Part shown: positions 52 to 23,151 of the stretch, one piece after another | Layout of the letters: the number at the start of each line of letters is the position of its first letter | How positions within the stretch are numbered: position 1 is the stretch's first letter | Source: Bacteroidales bacterium | GTDB lineage: Bacteria > Bacteroidota > Bacteroidia > Bacteroidales > DYOH01 | Reading direction: 5' to 3' | Assembly (NCBI GenBank): GCA_030632545.1 | Contig: DAOVUO010000001.1 | Span: 1-28,457 of the forward strand | Length of the DNA: 28,457 nt | The notes under the pieces: generated by a model | Told to the model about the DNA's origin: nothing | The model's database searches: none | What the model saw: the letters and a program-made list of their open reading frames with translations, nothing else | Position numbers and translations under genes: made by a program

Positions 52-170
52 AGTTTTAAACCAAGTTATTTTGTTTTTTAACAAGTTGAAAAATCTGCGA
101 ATAGCGAGCTATTTAAAGAATTTTCAAGGAAGTTAAAAGGCAAAAGAACAAGTTTTAAGCCAAGTTATTT
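52..170. repeat. Two copies of a 20-bp direct repeat (19/20 identical), 99 bp apart
   Basis: 52-71 AGTTTTAAACCAAGTTATTT and 151-170 AGTTTTAAGCCAAGTTATTT; the second copy contains the stop codon of the TPR/PP2C gene. Confidence 0.7.
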
Positions 171-2966
171 CGGAACAATCCCTAAGCTAAATCCTATAAC
201 AATCACATCATCAATTTGCTCTCGAGTTCCACGCCAAGTTTCAAATTCATTTTGAACAGAAATTTGCTGCTCATGCATTTTCTGCTGATTTATACTTAGT
301 AAAAAATTCTTTAATCTCTTAGACAAATATTTTCGCCCCGATTCTCCACCAAATTGATCAACAAAACCATCGCTAAACAAATAAAGAGTATCTCCCTCGT
401 TATAAGGAATTGCATTATTTGTAAACTCATGAACCTTACCACTATGAATTCCAATTGGCATTTTATCAGCCTTCCATTCATGTAAAACTAGTCCGTTATT
501 TTCAATTTTTATATCAGACTGATAATCATCTCTGTTTGAAATTAAATATAATGGATTATAAGCACCAGCGTAATCTATTTTCTTGTTCTCCATATCAATA
601 ACTAATAACGAAATATCCATACCATCTTTCGCTTCATCCATTTTCCCCGTTTGATGAAGCGAGCTGATAACTAAACTCCTCAGTTTTTCAAGAATAATTG
701 AAGCCTTACTAACTGGTTCTTCGCCAACAATCCTATTCAAATACGAAATTCCCAACATACTCATAAATGCACCAGGCACTCCATGTCCAGTACAATCTCC
801 AGCTACAATAACAATTTTTTGTTCCTGTTGACTAATCCAATAAAAATCACCACTAACAATATCCCTTGGCCTATAAAAAACAAAATTTTCTGGTAAAAAT
901 TCATTAAAATAGCCTGTTGGCGGCAATACTGCTTGTTGAATTCTTCTCGCATATACAATACTTGAAGTCATTGATTCTTTTTGTCTAGCTATCTCATTTC
1001 TATGTACTTCAATCCTATTTCTCTGTTTTTCTATCTCTTCTTTTTGCTTAGCAAGTTCACTATTATGCTCAGCCAGTAATTTATTTGTTCGTTTACTTTG
1101 CTTATTTAAACGAATCAATAGAAAAACAAGCACAATACCAAGCAATAATGCACTTCCAAGACCAGCAATCTGCCAATTACGTTTTTCTAAATCCTGTTCT
1201 CTTTCACGTATTTTTAATTCACTTATAGTATTTTCTTGATTTAAAATGTCAATCTCTTGTTTTTGTTTTTCCTTATGGTATTTAGAAATAACTCGCTCTG
1301 CTTTTAATCGGCCAACCATTCGACTTAACTTCCTCGATACTTGAGCTTTTTTAGCAAGAACACTTTTCATTCTCAAACCATAATCATCCTCCAAGTTTTG
1401 AGTTTTATACTTATATTTTTGATGTAAAATACTAATCTGACGTGTTTTTTCTTCTGAAACAGAAAAACGCAATTCTGAATATTTTTTATAATACTCTAGT
1501 GATTTAGCACAATCATCTGCACTCGCAAAAATTTCGGCTAAACTCCTATAATTATTGAAAAGAACCTCATTCAAATCCAACTCTTGGGATATTTGCAAAC
1601 TTTGACTCAATAATAATTTTGCTGTATCAATTTTTCCCATTTTCAAATAAGCATTTGCCTGATTATGTAATGCTATTGCCATTCCTTTTAAGTATTTTAA
1701 CTCAAGGCTTAATTCTTTAGATTGATTATAATAATTAACTGCCTGATTATAATCTTTTTCATCAAATTTCACATTACCAATATTATTTAAAGTAATAGCT
1801 TGTTCTTTCATATATCCGTGCTTCCTTGCTAGTTCCAGCGAACGAAAATAGTTTTGCAAAGCATCCGACCAGCGTTCTTTTTCATAATATATTACACCAA
1901 TATTATTATACGTTAACAATTTCTCTTCCTCATTATTAAGCCTATCCTCTAAATTAAGTGCGTGATTATAAAATTTTAATGCACTATCAAAATCCTCGGT
2001 GGAATAATATAGATTCCCAATATTATAATTAAGCTGTGCCTGCTCCTCTTCTTTATTCTGATTTTTATAAATATTCAATGCTTTTTGATAATTGTATAAT
2101 GCCTCATCAAACATTAATTTGCTATCATAAACTGAAGCAATATTATTATACAAAATTGGTAGGTTGGATGAATTTTGCTTATTTTTTTCAATACTTAAAG
2201 ACTTCTGATAAGATGATAATGCCAATTTCCAATTACCTTGATAAAACTCGATGTTTCCTTTATTAAGCAATAAAGTTGAATATAATTCGGAATTTGCGCT
2301 GCTATCAATCTTACTAAAAGCCTCGTTTATTGCCTCCAACGATTTCGTAAGCTTGTTTTGTTGCTGATAATCAAGTGCTAATTCTAGCATGGCCTCTGCC
2401 TGTGCGAGAGGCGTTTCATTAATTATACTGTCCGACAATTCATTAATATCTTGTAACTCTGGTTGATTTTCAATATTACCATATTTTGATTGGATGGAAA
2501 TATTTTTAATTATCAGATTTGACTCATTATACATCATTCCCTGCAAAATATGTACTTGTCTTACATCAAAAGGTAATTTTGCATATACGCACTCGGCAGT
2601 ATACACCTCAGCATCAGCTTCTTCGTAATACTGTTCTGCTGGATTAATCTGTTCTTTACCAGCTATTAATAAGCCATTTTTTCTGAGATTTTGAATAAGC
2701 TGTAAATTACTAACTTGAAGACGATTATTTACATTAACCAAATTCCATGTATATGAAGTAAATGCACCACTAAATGTAATCAGCTCACCAGCTTTAGGCG
2801 TAATTCGTATATAAAAAATAGTATGTAAATTCGTATAAGCTACTGAATCAATAAATACTCCTGTTTTATTTGACTCGTACTGCATATTTACATCTACAAA
2901 TTCATTTTGAGCATTTAAGCTCCCAATAACTATAAATAGAAATATTAAAGTAAGTTTTATTCTCAT
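165..2966 (-). CDS. Membrane-anchored TPR-repeat sensor with C-terminal SpoIIE/PP2C-family (RsbU-like) Ser/Thr phosphatase domain
   Basis: N-terminal signal peptide; multiple TPR repeats (e.g. YNNIASVY..ALYNYQKAL, YNNIGVIY..AL, LNNIGNV); one TM (WQIAGLGSALLLGIVLVFLLIRL); coiled coil; PP2C motifs SGDFYW, GDCTGHGVPGAFMSM, DGMDIS, LFSDGFVDQFGG, DDVIVIG. Confidence 0.88.
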   Translation of the reverse strand: MRIKLTLIFLFIVIGSLNAQNEFVDVNMQYESNKTGVFIDSVAYTNLHTIFYIRITPKAGELITFSGAFTSYTWNLVNVNNRLQVSNLQLIQNLRKNGLLIAGKEQINPAEQYYEEADAEVYTAECVYAKLPFDVRQVHILQGMMYNESNLIIKNISIQSKYGNIENQPELQDINELSDSIINETPLAQAEAMLELALDYQQQNKLTKSLEAINEAFSKIDSSANSELYSTLLLNKGNIEFYQGNWKLALSSYQKSLSIEKNKQNSSNLPILYNNIASVYDSKLMFDEALYNYQKALNIYKNQNKEEEQAQLNYNIGNLYYSTEDFDSALKFYNHALNLEDRLNNEEEKLLTYNNIGVIYYEKERWSDALQNYFRSLELARKHGYMKEQAITLNNIGNVKFDEKDYNQAVNYYNQSKELSLELKYLKGMAIALHNQANAYLKMGKIDTAKLLLSQSLQISQELDLNEVLFNNYRSLAEIFASADDCAKSLEYYKKYSELRFSVSEEKTRQISILHQKYKYKTQNLEDDYGLRMKSVLAKKAQVSRKLSRMVGRLKAERVISKYHKEKQKQEIDILNQENTISELKIREREQDLEKRNWQIAGLGSALLLGIVLVFLLIRLNKQSKRTNKLLAEHNSELAKQKEEIEKQRNRIEVHRNEIARQKESMTSSIVYARRIQQAVLPPTGYFNEFLPENFVFYRPRDIVSGDFYWISQQEQKIVIVAGDCTGHGVPGAFMSMLGISYLNRIVGEEPVSKASIILEKLRSLVISSLHQTGKMDEAKDGMDISLLVIDMENKKIDYAGAYNPLYLISNRDDYQSDIKIENNGLVLHEWKADKMPIGIHSGKVHEFTNNAIPYNEGDTLYLFSDGFVDQFGGESGRKYLSKRLKNFLLSINQQKMHEQQISVQNEFETWRGTREQIDDVIVIGFSLGIVPK

Positions 2967-5464: not shown

Positions 5465-6679
5465 TTATGCAATTCTTAATCTCTGAACACTTGCCTGCTC
5501 CATTTTTTGCTTGGCATAATCAAGTGTAACTGTATAATTTTCAACTTTTTCAGATGGTAAATCAAACATAGCATCTACCATAATTGCTTCACAAATTGAA
5601 CGTAATCCTCTAGCACCAAGTTTAAACTCAACAGCTTTATCTACAATATAATCAAGCACATCTTTCTCAAATTCTAAATGGATTCCATCCATTTCAAAAA
5701 GCTTATTATATTGTTTAATAATAGAATTTTTCGGCTCTGTAAGAATAAGGCGCAAAGCATCTCTATCTAACGGGTTTAGATGAGTTAAAACTGGCATTCT
5801 ACCTATTATTTCAGGAATAAGGCCAAAAGATCTTAAATCCTGAGGTGCAACATATTGCAATAAGTTATCTTTATCCAACGAACCTGCATCTTTATCTACC
5901 CCATAACCAACTACTTTCGTATTCAGCCTTTGTGCAATTTTACGCTCAATACCATCAAAAGCTCCCCCTGTTATAAACAATATATTTTTGGTATTTACAG
6001 GTATCATTTTTTGATCTGGATGCTTACGTCCTCCTTGTGGCGGCACATTTACAATAGCTCCTTCAAGTAGCTTTAATAATCCTTGCTGAACACCTTCGCC
6101 AGAAACATCGCGCGTAATTGAAGGATTATCTCCTTTACGTGCAATTTTATCTAATTCATCAATAAAAACTATTCCTCGCTCAGCAGAAGCCAAATCATAA
6201 TCAGCCGCCTGTAATAAACGTGTAAGAATACTTTCAATATCCTCTCCTACATAACCTGCCTCTGTCAAAACGGTGGCATCTACTATAGTAAACGGAACAT
6301 GAAGCATACGTGCAATTGTACGTGCAAGTAAGGTTTTTCCTGTACCAGTTCTACCAACAAGCAAAATGTTGGATTTTTCAATTTCTACATCATCATTAGT
6401 CTTTTCTTGTGTTAAGCGCTTATAATGATTATAAACAGCCACAGAAAGCACTTTTTTTGCTTCTTTTTGACCAATAACATATTGATCTAAAAAAGCTTTT
6501 ATTTCCCTAGGTTTAAGTAATTTAACTTCGCTTAACTTAAAATCATCATCTCGCTTAACCTCTTCGTTTACAATATCGTAAGCCTGTTTTGCACAACTCT
6601 CACAAATATGTCCCGAAACTCCCGCGATTAATAAATTTACTTCCCCTCTATTCCTTCCACAAAACGAACATTTATCCAT
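5465..6679 (-). CDS. clpX: ATP-dependent Clp protease ATP-binding subunit ClpX
   Basis: Zn-binding CSFCG...ICESC; YVIGQ; Walker A GRTGTGKT; [14 protein letters not shown]; Walker B FIDELDKI; [14 protein letters not shown]; GARGLRS. Confidence 0.97.
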
Positions 6680-6691
6680 ACTTCCTCTCTA

Positions 6692-7381
6692 TCAAATCTT
6701 TACTAAAACTTCATCAATCATTCCATATTCCTTAGCTTCTTCGGATGTCATCCAATAGTCGCGATCACTGTTTTCTTCAACTTTTTCAATTGTCTGGCCT
6801 GAATGATGCGCAATTATTGTATATAACTCTTTTTTAAGCTTATTTATTTCTCTTGCTGTAATTTCAATATCCGAAGCCTGTCCTTGAGCACCACCCATTG
6901 GCTGATGAATCATTACACGAGAATGCTTAAGAGCAGTACGTTTACCTTTTGCACCGGCTGTTAAAAGAACAGCTCCCATAGATGCAGCCATACCCGTACA
7001 AGTTGTTGACACATCAGCATTTATATACTGCATAGTATCGTAAATACCTAATCCAGCATAAACTGAACCACCTGGAGTATTAAAATAAATTTGAATATCT
7101 TTTGTTGGGTCGGTTGATTCAAGAAACAAAAGCTGCGCTTGAACAATATTTGCTACCTCATCGTAAATAGGCATTCCCAAAAAAATAATTCTATCCATCA
7201 TTAAACGAGAAAAAACATCCATTTCTGCAATATTTAACTGACGTTCTTCGATAATTCGAGGAGTTATTGAATTATAATACTGAGCATTAAATGTAGACTG
7301 AAATTGATGCATAGTTAAGCTATTAATTCCTACATGCTTAACTGCGTATTTTCTAAATTCATCATTAGGTATCATACTCAT
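6692..7381 (-). CDS. clpP: ATP-dependent Clp protease proteolytic subunit ClpP
   Basis: MDVFSRLMMDRIIFLG; NTPGGSVYAGLGIYDTMQ; catalytic Ser in AASMGA, His in MIHQP, Asp in SDRDYWM. Confidence 0.97.
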   Translation of the reverse strand: MSMIPNDEFRKYAVKHVGINSLTMHQFQSTFNAQYYNSITPRIIEERQLNIAEMDVFSRLMMDRIIFLGMPIYDEVANIVQAQLLFLESTDPTKDIQIYFNTPGGSVYAGLGIYDTMQYINADVSTTCTGMAASMGAVLLTAGAKGKRTALKHSRVMIHQPMGGAQGQASDIEITAREINKLKKELYTIIAHHSGQTIEKVEENSDRDYWMTSEEAKEYGMIDEVLVKI

Positions 7382-7557: not shown

Positions 7558-9729
7558 TTAATCAATTTGAAGATTAGTCATATTTTTAGTCAAATTAAAA
7601 TCGTAATCTGGATACTCAAATATTGAAGCTCTTTTTTCAGAATAGCTAAAAGAATAATTCCATATAGATTCGTATTCCTGAATATCCTCGCCAAACTCTT
7701 TCAATTGCATTAAAAAAGAATAAATTGATTTTGACTCAATAATATCCACCTTTTCCATTTTTTGGATTATTGGACTATGCTTTCTATTACTATCATGATC
7801 AAATCTAAGAATTCTACGTCCATCGAGACTCAAACCTATGACTCTAAATCCAAGGCTTTTACCTACACCAGGCAAATTCAAAACAGTTTTATCGGTAGCT
7901 AAAAATGGTATATCAGCAAAATTACGAATTTCATCAAGCTCCTTTGCAATATCAATTGTTTTCTCTACTAAAGAGTTAATTTTTTCATTTAATTCATCAG
8001 GATATCGTCCCCAAATTTTTTCTTCCTTCAACTCTTGAACAGCTCTAGCATTAGTCGCAAAATTCACAATATTCTCATTAAAACCTTTAACTGTAAATGT
8101 ATAATATGGTATTACACCAATGTCATTCAACACTTTACGTAATTTTGCTGTATGGCCTCTACGTGCAGCAGCCGACGTAAGAACTAATTGATTTGTAACC
8201 AACCAACCTGCTTTTGAAATATTTTCAATTGCATTCTTTGCTTCTGGTGTTATCTCCATTGCTGACTCAAAATGTGTTTGCACCACAAATTGTTTAAGTC
8301 CAAGTTTTGCAGCTTTTTCCTTAAATTCCTTCAGAATCTTAATCAAATCGGGTGTTATGCGCTGCGGCAAATAAGCAAAAATTCTCGTTCCTAATCTTAC
8401 CCTTAACATTTCTGCATATTTTCCACCATCTGGACGCTTAATATTTGCTTCTTTTTTTCTCTTTGCCATATCGTAAACAGCATCAAGAATCATTTTCAAT
8501 GATTTATCGCTACTCATAAAGGCATCACCACCAGTAATTAAAATATCTCTTAATTGCGAATCATTTTCAAAATAATCTAAATATCTTTTCAAGCGTTTTG
8601 GCCAAGTATCTTCAGGAGATAATTTATCCAAATTAAAATTAAGATCGCCTCTCTGAAAACCGTACATACGTTGACATGAAACACATAAACCAGCGCAAGC
8701 ACGTCCCATTGTTGAAGGAATTAAAATGGCTACTTCTGGATAACGGCGATGGACACTATCATGTGATGGCAGAAGCCATCCTGCTGCATTTGGCTTTCCT
8801 GGCTCAACAATATCTTCCTTTTCCCAAGCTTTTATATCACCAAACTCATCTATTAACTCCTGACTATAAATCACATACTGCCTAATTGTTAAATCATTTC
8901 CTTTAGCTTTAGTATTTAATAAACTAAGATAATGCAAATTTACAAAAAATGGAATCCCTTTCTTTACTGCTTTATGCAAAACATCCATAGTTTTGGCATC
9001 AAACGAATTATCTAGTAATTCATTTAATAAAATTGGATTACGAACAGCAAATTGCAGATGAAAAGTTTTATCATTCCACCATTTATTCATTAAAATTAAC
9101 TTCTCTTCAAAACTTGTATTTTCAGGCCAATTATATTTTGCCCGAACAATTTCACCTTTGTCTATTTTATTTATTAATATCCTTATTATTCTATCTTTGT
9201 TTTCTTTACGTTCAAGAATAACATCATTGTCTAAACCAGAAGAATGTCGTTGCATCCAATTCTCTACATCTTTTTTTGTTGCCTTTGGAAATACAAAATA
9301 TCCTGACAACTGGCGAAATAGATATAAAAAATCATAAGCAAAATCAACAGAAACTATTTCGTTAAACTTTAAATACTGGAATAATATTTCTAATGGTCGA
9401 TTAATAATCTCAATAGAATTATTATTTAAATCATCGAGTTTAAGTCCATTATTATCAATATAATCTAATAATCGTATTACAGCAATACTCCTATTACTAG
9501 GCTCTGCTTTCCCATGTATATATTGATTATTATAAAGCTGAAATGCATTAATATCATTTTTCAGCAAATCAAATAAATACTCTTTTAAATTCTGAAAAAA
9601 AGTTTCAATTGAATTTGATTGGTTTAATAAATTTGCTAGCTCAGGATTTTCATTTAAAATATCAGTTCTAATCTGAATGACTAATTCTTTTTTATTTTGA
9701 ATTCTTGTGTTATTAAGAAGTTCAAACAT
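7558..9729 (-). CDS. Long KamA-family radical SAM/PLP 2,3-aminomutase-like enzyme (substrate probably not lysine)
   Basis: HRRYPEVA; CxxxCxxC (CAGLCVSC, C345/349/352) followed by QR; LITGGDAFM; RLGTR..LPQRIT; THFE..EIT; NQLVL; PYYTF; C-terminal NLPGVGK (PLP-lysine region). About 220 aa longer at the N-terminus than clostridial KamA. Confidence 0.88.
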   Translation of the reverse strand: MFELLNNTRIQNKKELVIQIRTDILNENPELANLLNQSNSIETFFQNLKEYLFDLLKNDINAFQLYNNQYIHGKAEPSNRSIAVIRLLDYIDNNGLKLDDLNNNSIEIINRPLEILFQYLKFNEIVSVDFAYDFLYLFRQLSGYFVFPKATKKDVENWMQRHSSGLDNDVILERKENKDRIIRILINKIDKGEIVRAKYNWPENTSFEEKLILMNKWWNDKTFHLQFAVRNPILLNELLDNSFDAKTMDVLHKAVKKGIPFFVNLHYLSLLNTKAKGNDLTIRQYVIYSQELIDEFGDIKAWEKEDIVEPGKPNAAGWLLPSHDSVHRRYPEVAILIPSTMGRACAGLCVSCQRMYGFQRGDLNFNLDKLSPEDTWPKRLKRYLDYFENDSQLRDILITGGDAFMSSDKSLKMILDAVYDMAKRKKEANIKRPDGGKYAEMLRVRLGTRIFAYLPQRITPDLIKILKEFKEKAAKLGLKQFVVQTHFESAMEITPEAKNAIENISKAGWLVTNQLVLTSAAARRGHTAKLRKVLNDIGVIPYYTFTVKGFNENIVNFATNARAVQELKEEKIWGRYPDELNEKINSLVEKTIDIAKELDEIRNFADIPFLATDKTVLNLPGVGKSLGFRVIGLSLDGRRILRFDHDSNRKHSPIIQKMEKVDIIESKSIYSFLMQLKEFGEDIQEYESIWNYSFSYSEKRASIFEYPDYDFNLTKNMTNLQID

Positions 9730-9961
9730 TTGCTTTCCTTTCTATTTTTTTAATTTGTTAATAATAAATTTTATGATTTCCTATACAGTAATACTTCGTT
9801 CAGTTTTAAGTTAAAGCGCTGAATATCTAGCAGTTATACTTAATAAATTTATTTTTGCAAACAACTATCATTCAATGCCTTAGAAATATTTGACGAACCA
9901 TTGATACAGAACATAGGAATATAATAAAAAAAACTCTTTTTTTAAAACTTTTAACTAATAC

Positions 9962-11383
9962 TTACAAAATATTTTGGCGTGTAGCGTCTAATTTTATAAA
10001 TATAAAAAGCATTACTGTAAAGCTCCAAAGAGATGATCCTCCATAGCTAAAAAAAGGCAATGGAATACCCACAACTGGTGCTAAACCTATTGTCATGCCA
10101 ATATTAACTACAAAATGAAAAAACAAAATAGACGCTACTGCATAACCATAATACATACTAAATTCCATTTTCTGTCGCTCTGCCATTATGAGTATTCGCC
10201 AAAAAAGCACTAAAAATAAAATAATAACAGTAGTAGTTCCAACAAAGCCCCATTCTTCGCCAACTGTACAAAAAATAAAATCGGTGCTTTGCTCAGGAAC
10301 GAATTTATACTTTGTTTGTGTTCCTTGTAAAAATCCTTTTCCAATTAAACCACCTGATCCAATGGCAATTTTTGATTGATTTACATTATATCCTATTCCT
10401 CTCGGGTCTTCCTTTTCGCCTATAAGGACTAATATTCTGTTTTGTTGATGTGTGCCTAATACTTTTGAAAATATGTATTCTACTGAAAATAAAAACAAAA
10501 TTGAGGCATAAACCAGAGACAACACAACTAAAGCAACTTCCAACTTTTTCCTATAAATCCAGTATATATAAACAATTGAAGATAAAACTAAGGCTATGAA
10601 AACTAAATAATGAAGTTCAATATTGACTTCGGTTAAATTAGCGGTTATCCAACTAATAATTAATGTAAAAGTGAATACTGCCAATGCAGGTGCCAACTCG
10701 TTAATCTTTCCCGAATTAATTAATAAAAGTATAGATGCAACTAAAATAACAAACAACTCAAGGCTGAAAATATTAACTTTAAAACTGGCTATAAATAATA
10801 TAGCAAAAAATACAGCGAGTAATAAAATCCAACCAGGCAACCCTTTTCGGTAAAGTACTATAAACAAAGAGAAATATACTAATGCTGAACCTAAATCATT
10901 TTGTAAAATAATAAGAACTAAAGGCAACATAATAACAATAACAGCTTTAGCCAAGTCTCTTTTATTTCCAATATCAAAATTAAAACGGCTCATTAATCTA
11001 GCAAGTGCCAAAGCAGTAGCAAACTTGGCAAACTCAGAAGGTTGAATCCGAAAAGAACCTATTTCAATCCATGAAGCGGCTCCATTAATATCACGTGCAA
11101 ATATCAACACTAAAATTAATACCAAAATAATAAAGCCATATATTGCATACGCAAAAAAATGGTAAAATTTAACTTCAATCAATAATACTATAAATGCAAT
11201 AACAATTGCAGCTCCAATCCACAATAACTGCTTTCCATAACGCTGACTCAAATCTATAATTTGTTCATGTTCTTCGTTATATACGGCAGCATAAATGTTT
11301 ATCCATCCCAGAAAAACAAGTAAGCCATACAATGATATGGTGAACCAATCTAAATTTATTATCCAGTTTCGTGTATTAGACAA
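9962..11383 (-). CDS. rodA: Rod shape-determining SEDS peptidoglycan polymerase RodA (long Bacteroidales type, TTG start)
   Basis: GAASWIEIGSFRIQPSEFAK; LQNDLGSAL; GYNVNQSKIAIGSGG; PEQSTDFIF; GIPLPFFSYGGSS; directly downstream of mrdA. Confidence 0.95.
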   Translation of the reverse strand: MSNTRNWIINLDWFTISLYGLLVFLGWINIYAAVYNEEHEQIIDLSQRYGKQLLWIGAAIVIAFIVLLIEVKFYHFFAYAIYGFIILVLILVLIFARDINGAASWIEIGSFRIQPSEFAKFATALALARLMSRFNFDIGNKRDLAKAVIVIMLPLVLIILQNDLGSALVYFSLFIVLYRKGLPGWILLLAVFFAILFIASFKVNIFSLELFVILVASILLLINSGKINELAPALAVFTFTLIISWITANLTEVNIELHYLVFIALVLSSIVYIYWIYRKKLEVALVVLSLVYASILFLFSVEYIFSKVLGTHQQNRILVLIGEKEDPRGIGYNVNQSKIAIGSGGLIGKGFLQGTQTKYKFVPEQSTDFIFCTVGEEWGFVGTTTVIILFLVLFWRILIMAERQKMEFSMYYGYAVASILFFHFVVNIGMTIGLAPVVGIPLPFFSYGGSSLWSFTVMLFIFIKLDATRQNIL

Positions 11384-21734: not shown

Positions 21735-21762
21735 AAATTTAAAAACTTTAAACTTTTGATTG

Positions 21763-23151
21763 ATGGATATCACAAGAGAAAATATTAGTGAACTCAACGA
21801 CATTATTAAAATTAAAATCGAGGAAAACGATTTTATAGAGGTTGTAGAAAAAGCACTTAAAGATTATAGAAAAAAAGCCAACCTTCCAGGTTTTCGTCCA
21901 GGACGTGTTCCAATGGGTTACATTAGGAAAGCCTATGGAAAATCTGCAAAAGCCGATGAAATTAATAAAATGCTTTCAGAGTCTTTATTCAATTATCTTA
22001 AAACAGAAAAAATACAATATCTTGGAGAACCAATTCCGTATCATTTAGAAAATGAGGATAAAGTAGATTTTGAAAACGACAAAGAATTTGAATTTGCCTT
22101 TGAAATTGGAATTTCGCCCGAAATTGAATTAGAATTAAATAATGAAACTATAATTAATTTCTACAAAGTTACTCCAGAAGAAAAGTATATTAACTCAACT
22201 ATTGAGGATAATCAGAAACGACTTTCTACTGAAACAGAAATTGATGAAATTTCGGAAGATGAAGATATGTTGCGTGCAGATTTTGCTCAAGTTGACGAAA
22301 ATAAAGCATTAATCGAAAATGGTGTAGTTGCATTAGATGTTTTAGTTGCCATTAATATGGTAAAAGATGATGAGCTAAAAGAAAAATTCAAAGGACTAAA
22401 AATAGGTGATTCTATAGATTTTAATCCTTTAAAGGCATTTGAAAACGAAACAGAAGTAGCTGCCTTACTTAAAATTGATAAGGAAAACACAGAAGGTTTA
22501 AATGCAGATTATTTATTATCCGTAAAAAAAATCATACGTTATACACCAGCCGAACTAAACGAAAAGTTTTATAAAGGTCTTTTTGGTGAAGAAACAACAG
22601 TTAGTAATGAGGAAGAATTAAAAGAAGAAATTAAAAAGAAAATTGCTCAAGAATTTGAGTCAGAATCTGAAGCACAATTCTTTTTAGATTTTAAGGATAA
22701 AATGATTACAGAGCTCGACATTAGTTTACCAATGGAGTTTTTGAAAAAATGGATAAAATTAGCTTCAAAAGAAAACAAAGAACTAGATGATGAGACATTT
22801 GACAAAGAATTTCCGAAATTTGCTGAAGATTTAAAATGGCAAATTATATCTGGAAATATTTTTCAAAAAAATGAATTAAAAGTTGACGATGCAGCAACGA
22901 ACAAAGCTGCTGAAGAACTTGTAATAGCTGATTTGAAAAGATATGGCTTACCTCCAGCTTCTATAAATGCGGAGCTCGTACAGCAATTTGTACATTCGAT
23001 GCTAGAAAAAGAAGAAGACAAAGAAAGAGTTAAAAGAAAAGCAGAACAAGAGGTACTTACTAATTTTATTAAAGCAACAATCAAACTAGACGAAAAAGAA
23101 ATTAGTATTGACGAGTTTAACGATTTGAATAAAACACTAGAAGAGAAATAA
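21763..23151 (+). CDS. tig: Trigger factor
   Basis: Ribosome-binding motif ANLPGFRPGRVPMG; N-terminal MDITRENISELN..IKIKIEENDF typical of Bacteroidota; acidic 460-aa chaperone. ATG at 21763 (TTG at 21760 is in frame). Confidence 0.95.
   Translation: MDITRENISELNDIIKIKIEENDFIEVVEKALKDYRKKANLPGFRPGRVPMGYIRKAYGKSAKADEINKMLSESLFNYLKTEKIQYLGEPIPYHLENEDKVDFENDKEFEFAFEIGISPEIELELNNETIINFYKVTPEEKYINSTIEDNQKRLSTETEIDEISEDEDMLRADFAQVDENKALIENGVVALDVLVAINMVKDDELKEKFKGLKIGDSIDFNPLKAFENETEVAALLKIDKENTEGLNADYLLSVKKIIRYTPAELNEKFYKGLFGEETTVSNEEELKEEIKKKIAQEFESESEAQFFLDFKDKMITELDISLPMEFLKKWIKLASKENKELDDETFDKEFPKFAEDLKWQIISGNIFQKNELKVDDAATNKAAEELVIADLKRYGLPPASINAELVQQFVHSMLEKEEDKERVKRKAEQEVLTNFIKATIKLDEKEISIDEFNDLNKTLEEK

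What the first reader, a model, noticed from the sequence alone, without database searches (positions are those of the whole stretch)
7558..9729. KamA-like radical SAM enzyme carries the glutamate 2,3-aminomutase Lys/Asn signature rather than the lysine-binding Asp/Asp pair
Seen: the segments PYYTFTVK (K548, nt 8086-8088) and VLNLPGVGK (N618, nt 7876-7878; K624). Established: in Clostridium subterminale lysine 2,3-aminomutase the equivalent segments are PYYIYQCD (Asp293) and VVDAPGGGGK (Asp330, PLP-Lys337), and both Asp residues bind the lysine side-chain amine. Glutamate 2,3-aminomutase (Eam) of C. difficile has Lys and Asn at these positions. By-eye alignment puts K548 on Asp293 and N618 on Asp330. 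The Fe-S motif, the Arg after it and a candidate PLP lysine are retained. Inference: automatic annotation as lysine 2,3-aminomutase is probably wrong, and the enzyme likely acts on an acidic substrate, e.g. making beta-glutamate, a known compatible solute. No acetyltransferase (AblB-like), EpmA or lysine-fermentation genes lie nearby, which fits a non-lysine role.
Basis: partly seen in the sequence, partly recalled or inferred. Interest (0 to 1): 0.72.

Follow-up and report, generated by a model that had tools for sequence, protein, structure and literature searches.

The report
Long KamA enzyme with glutamate-type pocket
This gene encodes a double-length relative of lysine 2,3-aminomutase in which lysine and asparagine replace the two lysine-gripping aspartates, so it most likely makes beta-glutamate rather than beta-lysine and is often mislabelled in databases.

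Summary
ORF 7558-9729(-) encodes a 723-aa KamA-family radical SAM/PLP protein. K548, N618, K624 and R354 sit at the stated codons.

K548 aligns with Asp293 of Clostridium lysine 2,3-aminomutase by four methods. N618 aligns with Asp330 by MAFFT and by a Foldseek end-point, but hhalign did not reproduce that second site. Both residues are invariant in 125 family members. Every lysine- or arginine-type relative I fetched has Asp at the first site.

The protein is not an orthologue of C. difficile Eam (111 bits against a 650-bit cut-off). It belongs to a distinct long clade found mostly in anaerobic Bacteroidota. That clade shares a ~200-aa N-terminal domain and the K/N pair with a ~600-aa clade. 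The ~600-aa clade includes a Methanotorris igneus protein, and MJ0634 is the window protein's best Swiss-Prot fold match. A 2022 paper reports a methanogen glutamate 2,3-aminomutase; that it is of this long type rests on my memory.

Best reading: glutamate 2,3-aminomutase, confidence about 0.55. The osmolyte role is untested, and gene context is not conserved. The scan has met this family before on other DNA and reached the same reading.

The parts
7558..9729 (-). Whole gene: 723-aa long-form KamA-family radical SAM/PLP aminomutase-like protein (stop codon 7558-7560)
   Evidence: ORF list and translation. TIGR00238 145 bits. AF2 model pLDDT 91. The only strong PDB fold match is LAM 2A5H.
9085..9729 (-). 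Residues 1-215: helical N-terminal domain specific to the long and ~600-aa KamA clades
   Evidence: No Pfam hit. No PDB fold match with E below 0.9. AFDB cluster matches are only members of the same families. Aligns with the N-terminus of the Methanotorris igneus protein (BLASTP 20-692 to 4-597) and of MJ0634 (Foldseek 19-692 to 15-619). Atlas clusters of this type carry PF28531 DUF8427, but which part of the protein it covers was not determined.
8770..9084 (-). Residues 216-320: KamA N-terminal helical region (WWND...PYYLSLL...HRRYP) preceding the barrel
   Evidence: Profile alignment to LAM residues 16-74. hhalign 219 onward matches LAM 41 onward.
8050..8769 (-). Residues 321-560: radical SAM partial TIM barrel core
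   Evidence: phmmer, hmmsearch and hhalign to LAM. Pfam Radical_SAM weak hit 341-516.
8674..8697 (-). C345-x3-C349-x2-C352, the [4Fe-4S] motif; these are the only three cysteines in the protein
   Evidence: 125/125 and 128/128 conserved.
8668..8670 (-). R354, equivalent of LAM Arg134 (binds the substrate alpha-carboxylate in LAM)
   Evidence: Alignment CQR/CTR. Invariant. The role of Arg134 is from memory of the LAM structure paper.
8524..8532 (-). G400-G401-D402, the SAM-binding GGD motif
8086..8088 (-). K548, at the position of LAM Asp293 (side-chain pocket, site 1)
   Evidence: Conserved 125/125 in the long form and 127/128 in the ~600-aa clade.
7912..8034 (-). Residues 566-606: helical insertion, about 32 residues of it found only in the long form, lying between the two pocket sites
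   Evidence: Gap opposite the M. igneus protein in BLASTP. Helices 571-574, 578-588 and 594-605 in the model.
7876..7878 (-). N618, at the position of LAM Asp330 (side-chain pocket, site 2); register supported but not proven
   Evidence: MAFFT. Foldseek end-point L617 = EpmB R324. Invariant in 253 sequences. hhalign did not reproduce it.
7858..7860 (-). K624, candidate PLP Schiff-base lysine (LAM Lys337 equivalent)
   Evidence: MAFFT. Conserved 125/125 and 127/128.
7561..7857 (-). Residues 625-723: C-terminal domain without the LAM zinc-binding cysteines; D646 and H651 are invariant in the long form only, while H645 is largely shared with the ~600-aa clade
   Evidence: No Pfam hit. No Cys. Conservation counts.
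9730..9961 (-). 232-nt upstream intergenic region; no known riboswitch
   Evidence: Rfam E-value scan found only a chance-level hit. Sequence read.

Best explanation
The gene most likely encodes a SAM-, [4Fe-4S]- and PLP-dependent amino acid 2,3-aminomutase. Its side-chain pocket is built for a carboxylate rather than an amine, which points to glutamate 2,3-aminomutase (L-glutamate to beta-glutamate).

Shown here:
- The catalytic apparatus of lysine 2,3-aminomutase is kept: CxxxCxxC, GGD, His486, Asn513-Gln514, PYY, the Arg after the cluster and a Lys in the Gly loop.
- The two Asp positions that hold the lysine epsilon-amine in the Clostridium enzyme are Lys548 and Asn618, invariant across the family.
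- The protein forms one clade with ~600-aa KamA proteins that share its extra N-terminal domain and the same K/N pair. That clade includes the protein of Methanotorris igneus, an archaeon that accumulates beta-glutamate in response to salt.

Inferred:
- Lys548 and Asn618 bind the gamma-carboxylate.
- Chemistry then runs as in LAM: an external aldimine forms with PLP, the 5'-deoxyadenosyl radical abstracts the C3 hydrogen, and the amino group migrates through an azacyclopropylcarbinyl radical.

The physiological use of the product (osmolyte, catabolic intermediate or building block) is unknown.
For: - Residues and their invariance.
- Site 1 alignment by four methods.
- Site 2 by MAFFT and the Foldseek end-point.
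- K/N occurs only in the long and ~600-aa clades among the KamA proteins sampled. The named lysine- or arginine-type proteins, including an AblA next to ablB and an AblA-like protein next to epmA, all have Asp at site 1.
- Trees: long + ~600-aa is one side of a branch with 100/97 support and SH-aLRT 100 with M. igneus included.
- BLASTP to the M. igneus protein: E 1e-52, full length, with K and N matched.
- Best Swiss-Prot fold match is MJ0634 (E 6e-30, residues 19-692). Second is C. difficile glutamate 2,3-aminomutase (1e-18), ahead of all LAMs.
- The ~600-aa clade scores about 60 bits higher on the Eam model than on AblA.
- M. igneus accumulates beta-glutamate with rising NaCl (PMC1224877).
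- A methanogen glutamate 2,3-aminomutase has been reported (Tunckanat 2022; title seen).
- Ancylomarina euxinus carries both a true AblA (630 bits, above the 525 cut-off) and a long form, so the long form is not a redundant LAM.
- No AblB or EpmA in this genome or its closest relative.
Against: - No enzyme of the long clade has been assayed.
- The long clade sits on a very long stem (2.5-3.1 changes per site). It has insertions near the active site: 3 residues before the first Cys, 19 residues at 423-441, and about 32 extra residues within 566-606.
- Its own HMM scores do not favour Eam over AblA (111 against 106 bits).
- Site 2 was not reproduced by hhalign.
- I could not fetch any C. difficile-type Eam or MJ0634 sequence. 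The K/N rule for Eam, and the link between MJ0634-type proteins and the characterised methanogen enzyme, therefore rest on memory of two papers that are not held.
- ~600-aa relatives occur in NRPS / acyl-CoA dehydrogenase clusters, so the wider clade need not have one substrate.
- No conserved neighbour or riboswitch points to a role.
Confidence: 0.55

Rival explanations
1. It is a 2,3-aminomutase for another amino acid with an acidic or polar side chain, such as aspartate, 2-aminoadipate, glutamine or a D-amino acid. The long-form insertions would have reshaped the pocket.
For: Long stem branch and clade-specific insertions next to the pocket. Relatives in secondary-metabolite clusters suggest varied beta-amino acid products. 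Extra invariant basic residues R524 and R562 are shared with the ~600-aa clade.
Against: The K/N pair, R354 and the other core residues are the same as in the ~600-aa clade that includes the beta-glutamate-accumulating methanogen. Nothing found points to another specific substrate.
Confidence: 0.24
2. It uses radical SAM chemistry other than a free amino acid 2,3-amino shift, for example acting on a peptide, protein or other large substrate held by the extra N- and C-terminal domains.
For: About 300 residues beyond the LAM core have no recognisable fold relatives. The LAM zinc site is missing.
Against: The PLP lysine and the alpha-carboxylate arginine are invariant. The same N-terminal domain is present in the methanogen-type proteins. 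No partner gene is conserved.
Confidence: 0.1
3. It is a lysine 2,3-aminomutase, as JGI labels many members, feeding beta-lysine to osmolyte, EF-P or fermentation pathways.
For: Family membership and source names.
Against: Both lysine-binding Asp positions are replaced, one by a cationic Lys. AblA scores 106 bits against 525 and EpmB 64 against 369. No AblB or EpmA in the genome. A true AblA coexists with a long form in Ancylomarina.
Confidence: 0.03

Closest known systems
Methanogen-type long KamA proteins: MJ0634 (Q58051, 620 aa), the Methanotorris igneus 598-aa protein (P0419), and by my recollection the Methanococcus maripaludis C7 glutamate 2,3-aminomutase of Tunckanat et al. 2022 (Biochemistry 61:1077)
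   Same: Same architecture, with a ~200-aa N-terminal helical domain followed by the KamA core. Full-length homology (BLASTP 1e-52; Foldseek E 6e-30, TM by hit 0.74). Same K/N pair, N-x-P-x-x-G-K loop, RRYP and CQR motifs. One well-supported clade.
   Different: Only 22-29% identical. The long form is about 110-125 residues longer through a 26-aa N-terminal insert, 3 aa before the cluster, ~17-19 aa at 423-441, ~32 aa at 570-605 and a 31-aa tail. It has the long-form-only invariants D646 and H651 and sits on a very long stem. It is bacterial, mostly Bacteroidota. That MJ0634 or P0419 are orthologues of the assayed enzyme was not testable here.
Glutamate 2,3-aminomutase Eam of Clostridioides difficile (Q185C5; NCBIfam TIGR04368; Ruzicka & Frey 2007)
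   Same: Lys and Asn replace the Asp pair (for Eam this is from my memory of the paper's abstract). Second-best Swiss-Prot fold match (E 1e-18).
   Different: Not an orthologue: 111 bits against the 650-bit cut-off. Eam is 422 aa and lacks the N-terminal domain and the insertions. No Eam sequence could be fetched for a direct alignment.
Lysine 2,3-aminomutase of Clostridium subterminale (PDB 2A5H) and AblA (TIGR03820)
   Same: Fold (Foldseek E 3e-15, TM by target 0.66), CxxxCxxC, GGD, His, Asn-Gln, PYY, Arg134 equivalent and PLP lysine.
   Different: Asp293 is Lys and Asp330 is Asn. The Gly loop is one residue shorter. No zinc-site cysteines. Extra domains. 106 bits against 525. No ablB partner.
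EpmB (YjeK) of E. coli, the EF-P beta-lysylation aminomutase
   Same: KamA core fold (Foldseek E 6e-15).
   Different: EpmB keeps Asp288 and Glu325. 64 bits against 369. No EpmA in the genome.

Membership tests
KamA family (radical SAM + PLP 2,3-aminomutases, TIGR00238) | CxxxCxxC [4Fe-4S] motif and GGD SAM motif | tested here: met
   C345/C349/C352 and G400-G401-D402, invariant.
KamA family (radical SAM + PLP 2,3-aminomutases, TIGR00238) | Lysine in the Gly-rich loop for the PLP aldimine | tested here: met
   K624 aligns with the GGGGK lysine and is conserved 125/125. PLP binding itself was not tested.
KamA family (radical SAM + PLP 2,3-aminomutases, TIGR00238) | Family HMM score above the curated cut-off (199.2 bits) | tested here: not met
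   145 bits. The ~600-aa relatives pass at 293-365 bits. This is a divergent branch rather than a non-member: hhalign to LAMs gives 99.85% probability.
KamA family (radical SAM + PLP 2,3-aminomutases, TIGR00238) | Fold of lysine 2,3-aminomutase | tested here: met
   2A5H is the only strong PDB match: E 3e-15, TM by target 0.66.
Lysine 2,3-aminomutase (LAM / AblA, TIGR03820) | Asp293 and Asp330 bind the lysine epsilon-amine | tested here: not met
   Lys548 and Asn618 occupy these positions.
Lysine 2,3-aminomutase (LAM / AblA, TIGR03820) | Equivalog HMM at or above 525 bits; C-terminal zinc cysteines; ablB or lysine-fermentation neighbours | tested here: not met
   106 bits. Only three Cys, all in the cluster motif. 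No AblB. All neighbours are housekeeping genes.
Glutamate 2,3-aminomutase, C. difficile type (TIGR04368) | Lys and Asn at the two Asp positions | tested here: met
   K548 is firm. N618 is supported, with a possible +/-1 register error. That Eam has K/N is from my memory of Ruzicka & Frey 2007; the paper is not held.
Glutamate 2,3-aminomutase, C. difficile type (TIGR04368) | Equivalog HMM at or above 650 bits | tested here: not met
   111 bits.
Glutamate 2,3-aminomutase, C. difficile type (TIGR04368) | Converts L-glutamate to beta-glutamate and not lysine | not testable with these tools
   Needs an anaerobic enzyme assay.
Methanogen-type long KamA (MJ0634 / M. igneus / reported M. maripaludis Eam) | N-terminal extension of roughly 160-200 aa homologous across the clade | tested here: met
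   BLASTP from residue 20 to residue 4 of P0419. Foldseek from 19 to 15 of MJ0634. AFDB cluster hits of the N-domain model are only such proteins.
Methanogen-type long KamA (MJ0634 / M. igneus / reported M. maripaludis Eam) | Forms one clade with these proteins, apart from the short KamA enzymes | tested here: met
   100/97 and SH-aLRT 100 with M. igneus included. The long form is a separate sub-branch on a long stem.
Methanogen-type long KamA (MJ0634 / M. igneus / reported M. maripaludis Eam) | Orthology of the sampled archaeal proteins to the enzyme shown to give beta-glutamate | not testable with these tools
   The paper and the M. maripaludis C7 sequence could not be obtained.
EpmB (TIGR03821) | HMM at or above 369 bits; EpmA partner; acidic pocket residues | tested here: not met
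   64 bits. Only LysRS-level hits to the EpmA model. K/N instead of D/E.

The most novel reading that the evidence does not exclude
The long-form KamA enzymes may be an unrecognised bacterial route to beta-glutamate, or to a related beta-amino acid, in anaerobic Bacteroidota. Carriers include human-gut Bacteroides, Parabacteroides and Phocaeicola. Beta-glutamate is a faecal metabolite reported to rise in prodromal and manifest Parkinson's disease, and its microbial sources are essentially unannotated (PMC12502400). The clade-specific N-terminal domain and insertions would then be a new regulatory or oligomerisation module on a radical SAM aminomutase.
Probability: 0.3. Interest if true: 0.7.

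Novelty: new variant of a known kind. Interest (0 to 1): 0.5.

Why it matters
**Annotation.** Thousands of database entries of this type are called lysine 2,3-aminomutase or are left as 'KamA family protein'. kamA is used as a marker of the lysine-to-butyrate pathway in gut metagenomics (for example PMC3994512, listed). A glutamate-type enzyme under that name would inflate such counts.

**Biochemistry.** Only two glutamate 2,3-aminomutases have been reported. A third, architecturally distinct lineage with an unexplained N-terminal domain and no zinc site would widen the family. It would also test the Asp-to-Lys/Asn specificity rule.

**Physiology.** The biological sources of beta-glutamate outside methanogens are poorly known. 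Cultured carriers exist (Ancylomarina euxinus, Saccharicrinis, Desulfocicer vacuolatum, gut Bacteroidales), so the question is directly testable.

Tried and rejected
**Reference sequences I could not obtain.**
- I looked for a true C. difficile-type Eam (TIGR04368 at or above 650 bits) to align against. None turned up in 401 genomes of the window's phylum, in the plasmid collection, in two Peptostreptococcales records or in four genomes that carry the long form.
- Ruzicka & Frey 2007 and Tunckanat 2022 are not held. A search for the locus tag found nothing.

**Searches that gave nothing useful.**
- A homologue search with the core cut out returned only fragments of the long family.
- No known riboswitch lies upstream. 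The promoter scan was not above shuffles.
- The N-terminal domain has no fold relative in the PDB, and AFDB clusters returned only its own families. No Pfam hits for the N- or C-terminal parts.

**Conserved gene context: rejected.**
- Of 80 related loci, only the closest relative shares clpP-clpX and four share rodA/mrdA.
- The most frequent neighbour, a MOP-type flippase, occurs in 15 of 82 loci.

**Housekeeping role: rejected.** The long form was found in only 5 of 401 and 2 of 301 sampled genomes.

**Spirochaetota origin: rejected.** I briefly suspected this from the unnamed phylum sample. SusD/RagB genes in the genome, Porin_10 in the window and synteny with a Bacteroidota-labelled MAG rule it out.

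**Residue-level superposition on 2A5H: not possible.** Model coordinates are not exposed.
Full report
**The gene and its setting**

ORF 7558-9729 on the minus strand encodes 723 residues. A 232-nt upstream spacer and a 176-nt downstream spacer flank it. It lies between rodA (9962-11383) and clpP-clpX (6692-7381 and 5465-6679).

Everything else in the window is housekeeping: valS, mreD, mrdA, a sigma-54 response regulator, an acyl-ACP thioesterase, tig, ksgA, lipB, rsfS, ftsH, a Porin_10 protein and a GH25 lysozyme.

The genome is a 78%-complete MAG of 3.16 Mb. It is Bacteroidota: it has SusD/RagB genes and Porin_10. The window is syntenic with a MAG labelled Acetofilamentum sp., with ClpP 92% and ClpX 84% identical. 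The same DNA is held in cold-seep metagenome runs.

**Checking the observation**

The codons are as stated:
- K548 at 8086-8088, within PYYTFTVK.
- N618 at 7876-7878 and K624 at 7858-7860, within VLNLPGVGK.
- The cluster motif is C345-AGL-C349-VS-C352, followed by Q353-R354.

These three cysteines are the only ones in the protein.

*Site 1.* phmmer and a family profile against PDB 2A5H align ...IPYYTFT with ...RPYYIYQ without gaps up to residue 546/291. K548 therefore falls on Asp293. The same pairing comes from MAFFT L-INS-i with real sequences: AblA next to ablB from Peptoclostridium acidaminophilum and Bacillus velezensis, LAM of Acetoanaerobium, E. coli EpmB, Xenorhabdus BlsG, and a Rhizobium AblA-like protein next to epmA. 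hhalign profile-profile comparison agrees at 99.85% probability.

*Site 2.* MAFFT places N618 on the Asp of VVDAPGGGGK and K624 on the PLP lysine, with the Gly loop one residue shorter. Foldseek's alignment to E. coli EpmB ends at L617 = R324. In EpmB, Asp288, Glu325 and Lys332 have the same 37 and 7 spacing as LAM Asp293, Asp330 and Lys337. N618 therefore faces the Asp330 equivalent.

There is a caveat. hhalign stopped at residue 560 for the long family. For the ~600-aa relatives it chose a different register with two large gaps. I treat site 2 as supported but not proven.

*Conservation.* K548, N618, K624 and R354 are each 125/125 in long-form proteins that are 41-100% identical to each other. 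They are 127-128 of 128 in the ~600-aa sister clade.

**What the protein is**

It is a divergent KamA-family member and falls below every curated cut-off:

| NCBIfam model | Score (bits) | Cut-off (bits) |
|---|---|---|
| TIGR00238 (KamA family) | 145 | 199 |
| Eam | 111 | 650 |
| AblA | 106 | 525 |
| BlsG (arginine 2,3-aminomutase) | 77 | 600 |
| EpmB | 64 | 369 |

The AlphaFold model is confident (pLDDT 91). The only strong PDB match is LAM 2A5H.

At least 8000 proteins of about 730 aa share the full architecture at 54-69% identity (only the 8000 best candidates were scored). Most come from Bacteroidales and Marinilabiliales MAGs, and JGI calls many of them lysine 2,3-aminomutase.

Named carriers include:
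- Ancylomarina euxinus and Saccharicrinis.
- Two Desulfobacterota, Desulfocicer vacuolatum DSM 3385 and a Desulfosarcina MAG.
- The gut species Bacteroides finegoldii, Parabacteroides distasonis and Phocaeicola massiliensis. The B. finegoldii protein has CYYTFSVKG and VLNLPAIGK.

The family is patchy. It was found in 5 of 401 genomes sampled from the window's phylum and in 2 of 301 from the class of Ancylomarina.

**Relatives that inform function**

A whole-library search found only about four full-length 50%-identity clusters of the long form. After them comes a set of ~600-aa proteins at 27-31% identity. These share the N-terminal domain, RRYP, CxQxCxYCQRNWE, PYYxFxxKGK and FNVPxLGK.

Trees put long + ~600-aa on one side of a branch from all short KamA enzymes, with support 100/97 and SH-aLRT 100. 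The long form is a monophyletic sub-branch on a stem of 2.5-3.1 changes per site.

A profile search with the ~600-aa proteins returned the 598-aa protein of Methanotorris igneus at rank 11 (917 bits). BLASTP of the window protein against it gives E 1e-52 over residues 20-692 to 4-597. PYYTFTVKG pairs with PYYTFNTKG, and TDKTVLNLPGVGK pairs with TDKPIFNVPRLGK.

Independently, the best Swiss-Prot fold match is MJ0634 of M. jannaschii: 620 aa, E 6e-30, residues 19-692 to 15-619. C. difficile glutamate 2,3-aminomutase follows at 1e-18, and the LAMs follow after that.

The ~600-aa clade scores about 60 bits higher on the Eam model than on AblA.

M. igneus accumulates beta-glutamate preferentially as NaCl rises (PMC1224877). 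[quoted passage not shown] My recollection is that this enzyme has an N-terminal extension of about 160 aa. The paper is not held, so the link from MJ0634-type proteins to the assayed enzyme is inference.

**What argues against lysine**
- Neither this genome nor its closest relative has AblB or EpmA.
- Ancylomarina euxinus has both a true AblA (630 bits, above the 525 cut-off) and a long form.
- All lysine- or arginine-type enzymes sampled keep Asp at site 1.

**What remains open**

Gene context gives no help. Only the closest relative shares clpPX. The commonest neighbour, a flippase, is present in 15 of 82 loci. The B. finegoldii neighbourhood is unrelated. No known riboswitch lies upstream.

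The N-terminal 215 residues form a helical domain with no PDB relative, and AFDB matches only within these families. Atlas clusters of this type carry PF28531 DUF8427, and one of them is auto-named glutamate 2,3-aminomutase.

Compared with the methanogen type, the long form has extra segments:
- about 26 residues at 191-216;
- three residues before the first Cys;
- about 19 residues at 423-441;
- about 32 residues at 570-605;
- a 31-residue tail.

It lacks the zinc cysteines of LAM.

Two ~600-aa relatives sit in clusters with NRPS, acyl-CoA dehydrogenase and 2-hydroxyacyl-CoA dehydratase genes. The wider clade therefore also serves secondary metabolism.

**Verdict**

It needs two corrections:
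- The protein is not a C. difficile-type Eam. It is a distinct long lineage allied to the methanogen-type enzymes.
- The compatible-solute role is only one possibility.

The cold-seep origin and the many saline-sediment relatives fit that role. Carriage by gut Bacteroidales does not obviously fit it.

Earlier notes of this scan on other genomes describe the same family, and one follow-up reached the same active-site reading. If the activity is confirmed, the gut members become candidate sources of faecal beta-glutamate, a metabolite reported to rise in Parkinson's disease (PMC12502400).

Noticed in passing
L114:7083-8873 and L115:2301-4121: Two ~600-aa K/N-type KamA proteins (P0327, P0361) lie in apparent natural-product clusters. 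These hold an NRPS module, an AMP-ligase, a carrier protein, acyl-CoA dehydrogenase, ETF, 2-hydroxyacyl-CoA dehydratase with its activator, or asparagine synthase. This suggests a beta-amino acid building-block role for part of the clade.
   Followed up: partly
L088 / L106 (Desulfocicer vacuolatum DSM 3385) and L086 / L105 (Desulfosarcina MAG): Long-form genes at 53-54% identity to the window protein occur in Desulfobacterota and nest among the Bacteroidota sequences in the tree. This indicates transfer between phyla. D. vacuolatum is a cultured strain that also has a short KamA and further ~830-aa KamA-like ORFs.
   Followed up: partly
window 165-2966 (-): A 933-aa TPR + SpoIIE (PP2C phosphatase) protein. 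Homologues lie within 8 kb of the long KamA gene in 7 of 80 related loci. This is a weak, unexplained recurrence.
   Followed up: no
L108 (G403:C16) and G000:C66:4603-5085: The closest relative has a second, 457-aa KamA-like radical SAM protein. It has neither the Asp pair nor K/N (PYYMFVARDT, no Gly-rich loop) and sits on a very long branch. The window's genome has a weak counterpart (20 bits). Function unknown.
   Followed up: no
P0379 (600 aa, ~600-aa clade): This member has Asn instead of the PLP lysine (LGN rather than LGK) and CGRNLE instead of CQRNWE. It is possibly an inactive or re-purposed paralogue.
   Followed up: no
window 7561-9729 (-): The 723-residue protein contains exactly three cysteines, all in the radical SAM motif. 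The zinc site that ties LAM subunits together cannot exist in the same form. D646 and H651 are invariant in the long form only; H645 is also largely conserved in the ~600-aa clade.
   Followed up: partly
search of 401 genomes of the window's phylum: 163 of 401 genomes have a KamA-family match. Most are short (about 380-485 aa) and score 400-510 bits on the Eam model but below its cut-off. None passes as a true C. difficile-type Eam.
   Followed up: no
window 21760-23151 (+) versus 5465-7381 (-): The trigger factor gene lies 14 kb from clpP-clpX and on the opposite strand. The long KamA gene, the elongasome genes and valS lie in between, unlike the tig-clpP-clpX order common in other bacteria.
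   Followed up: no
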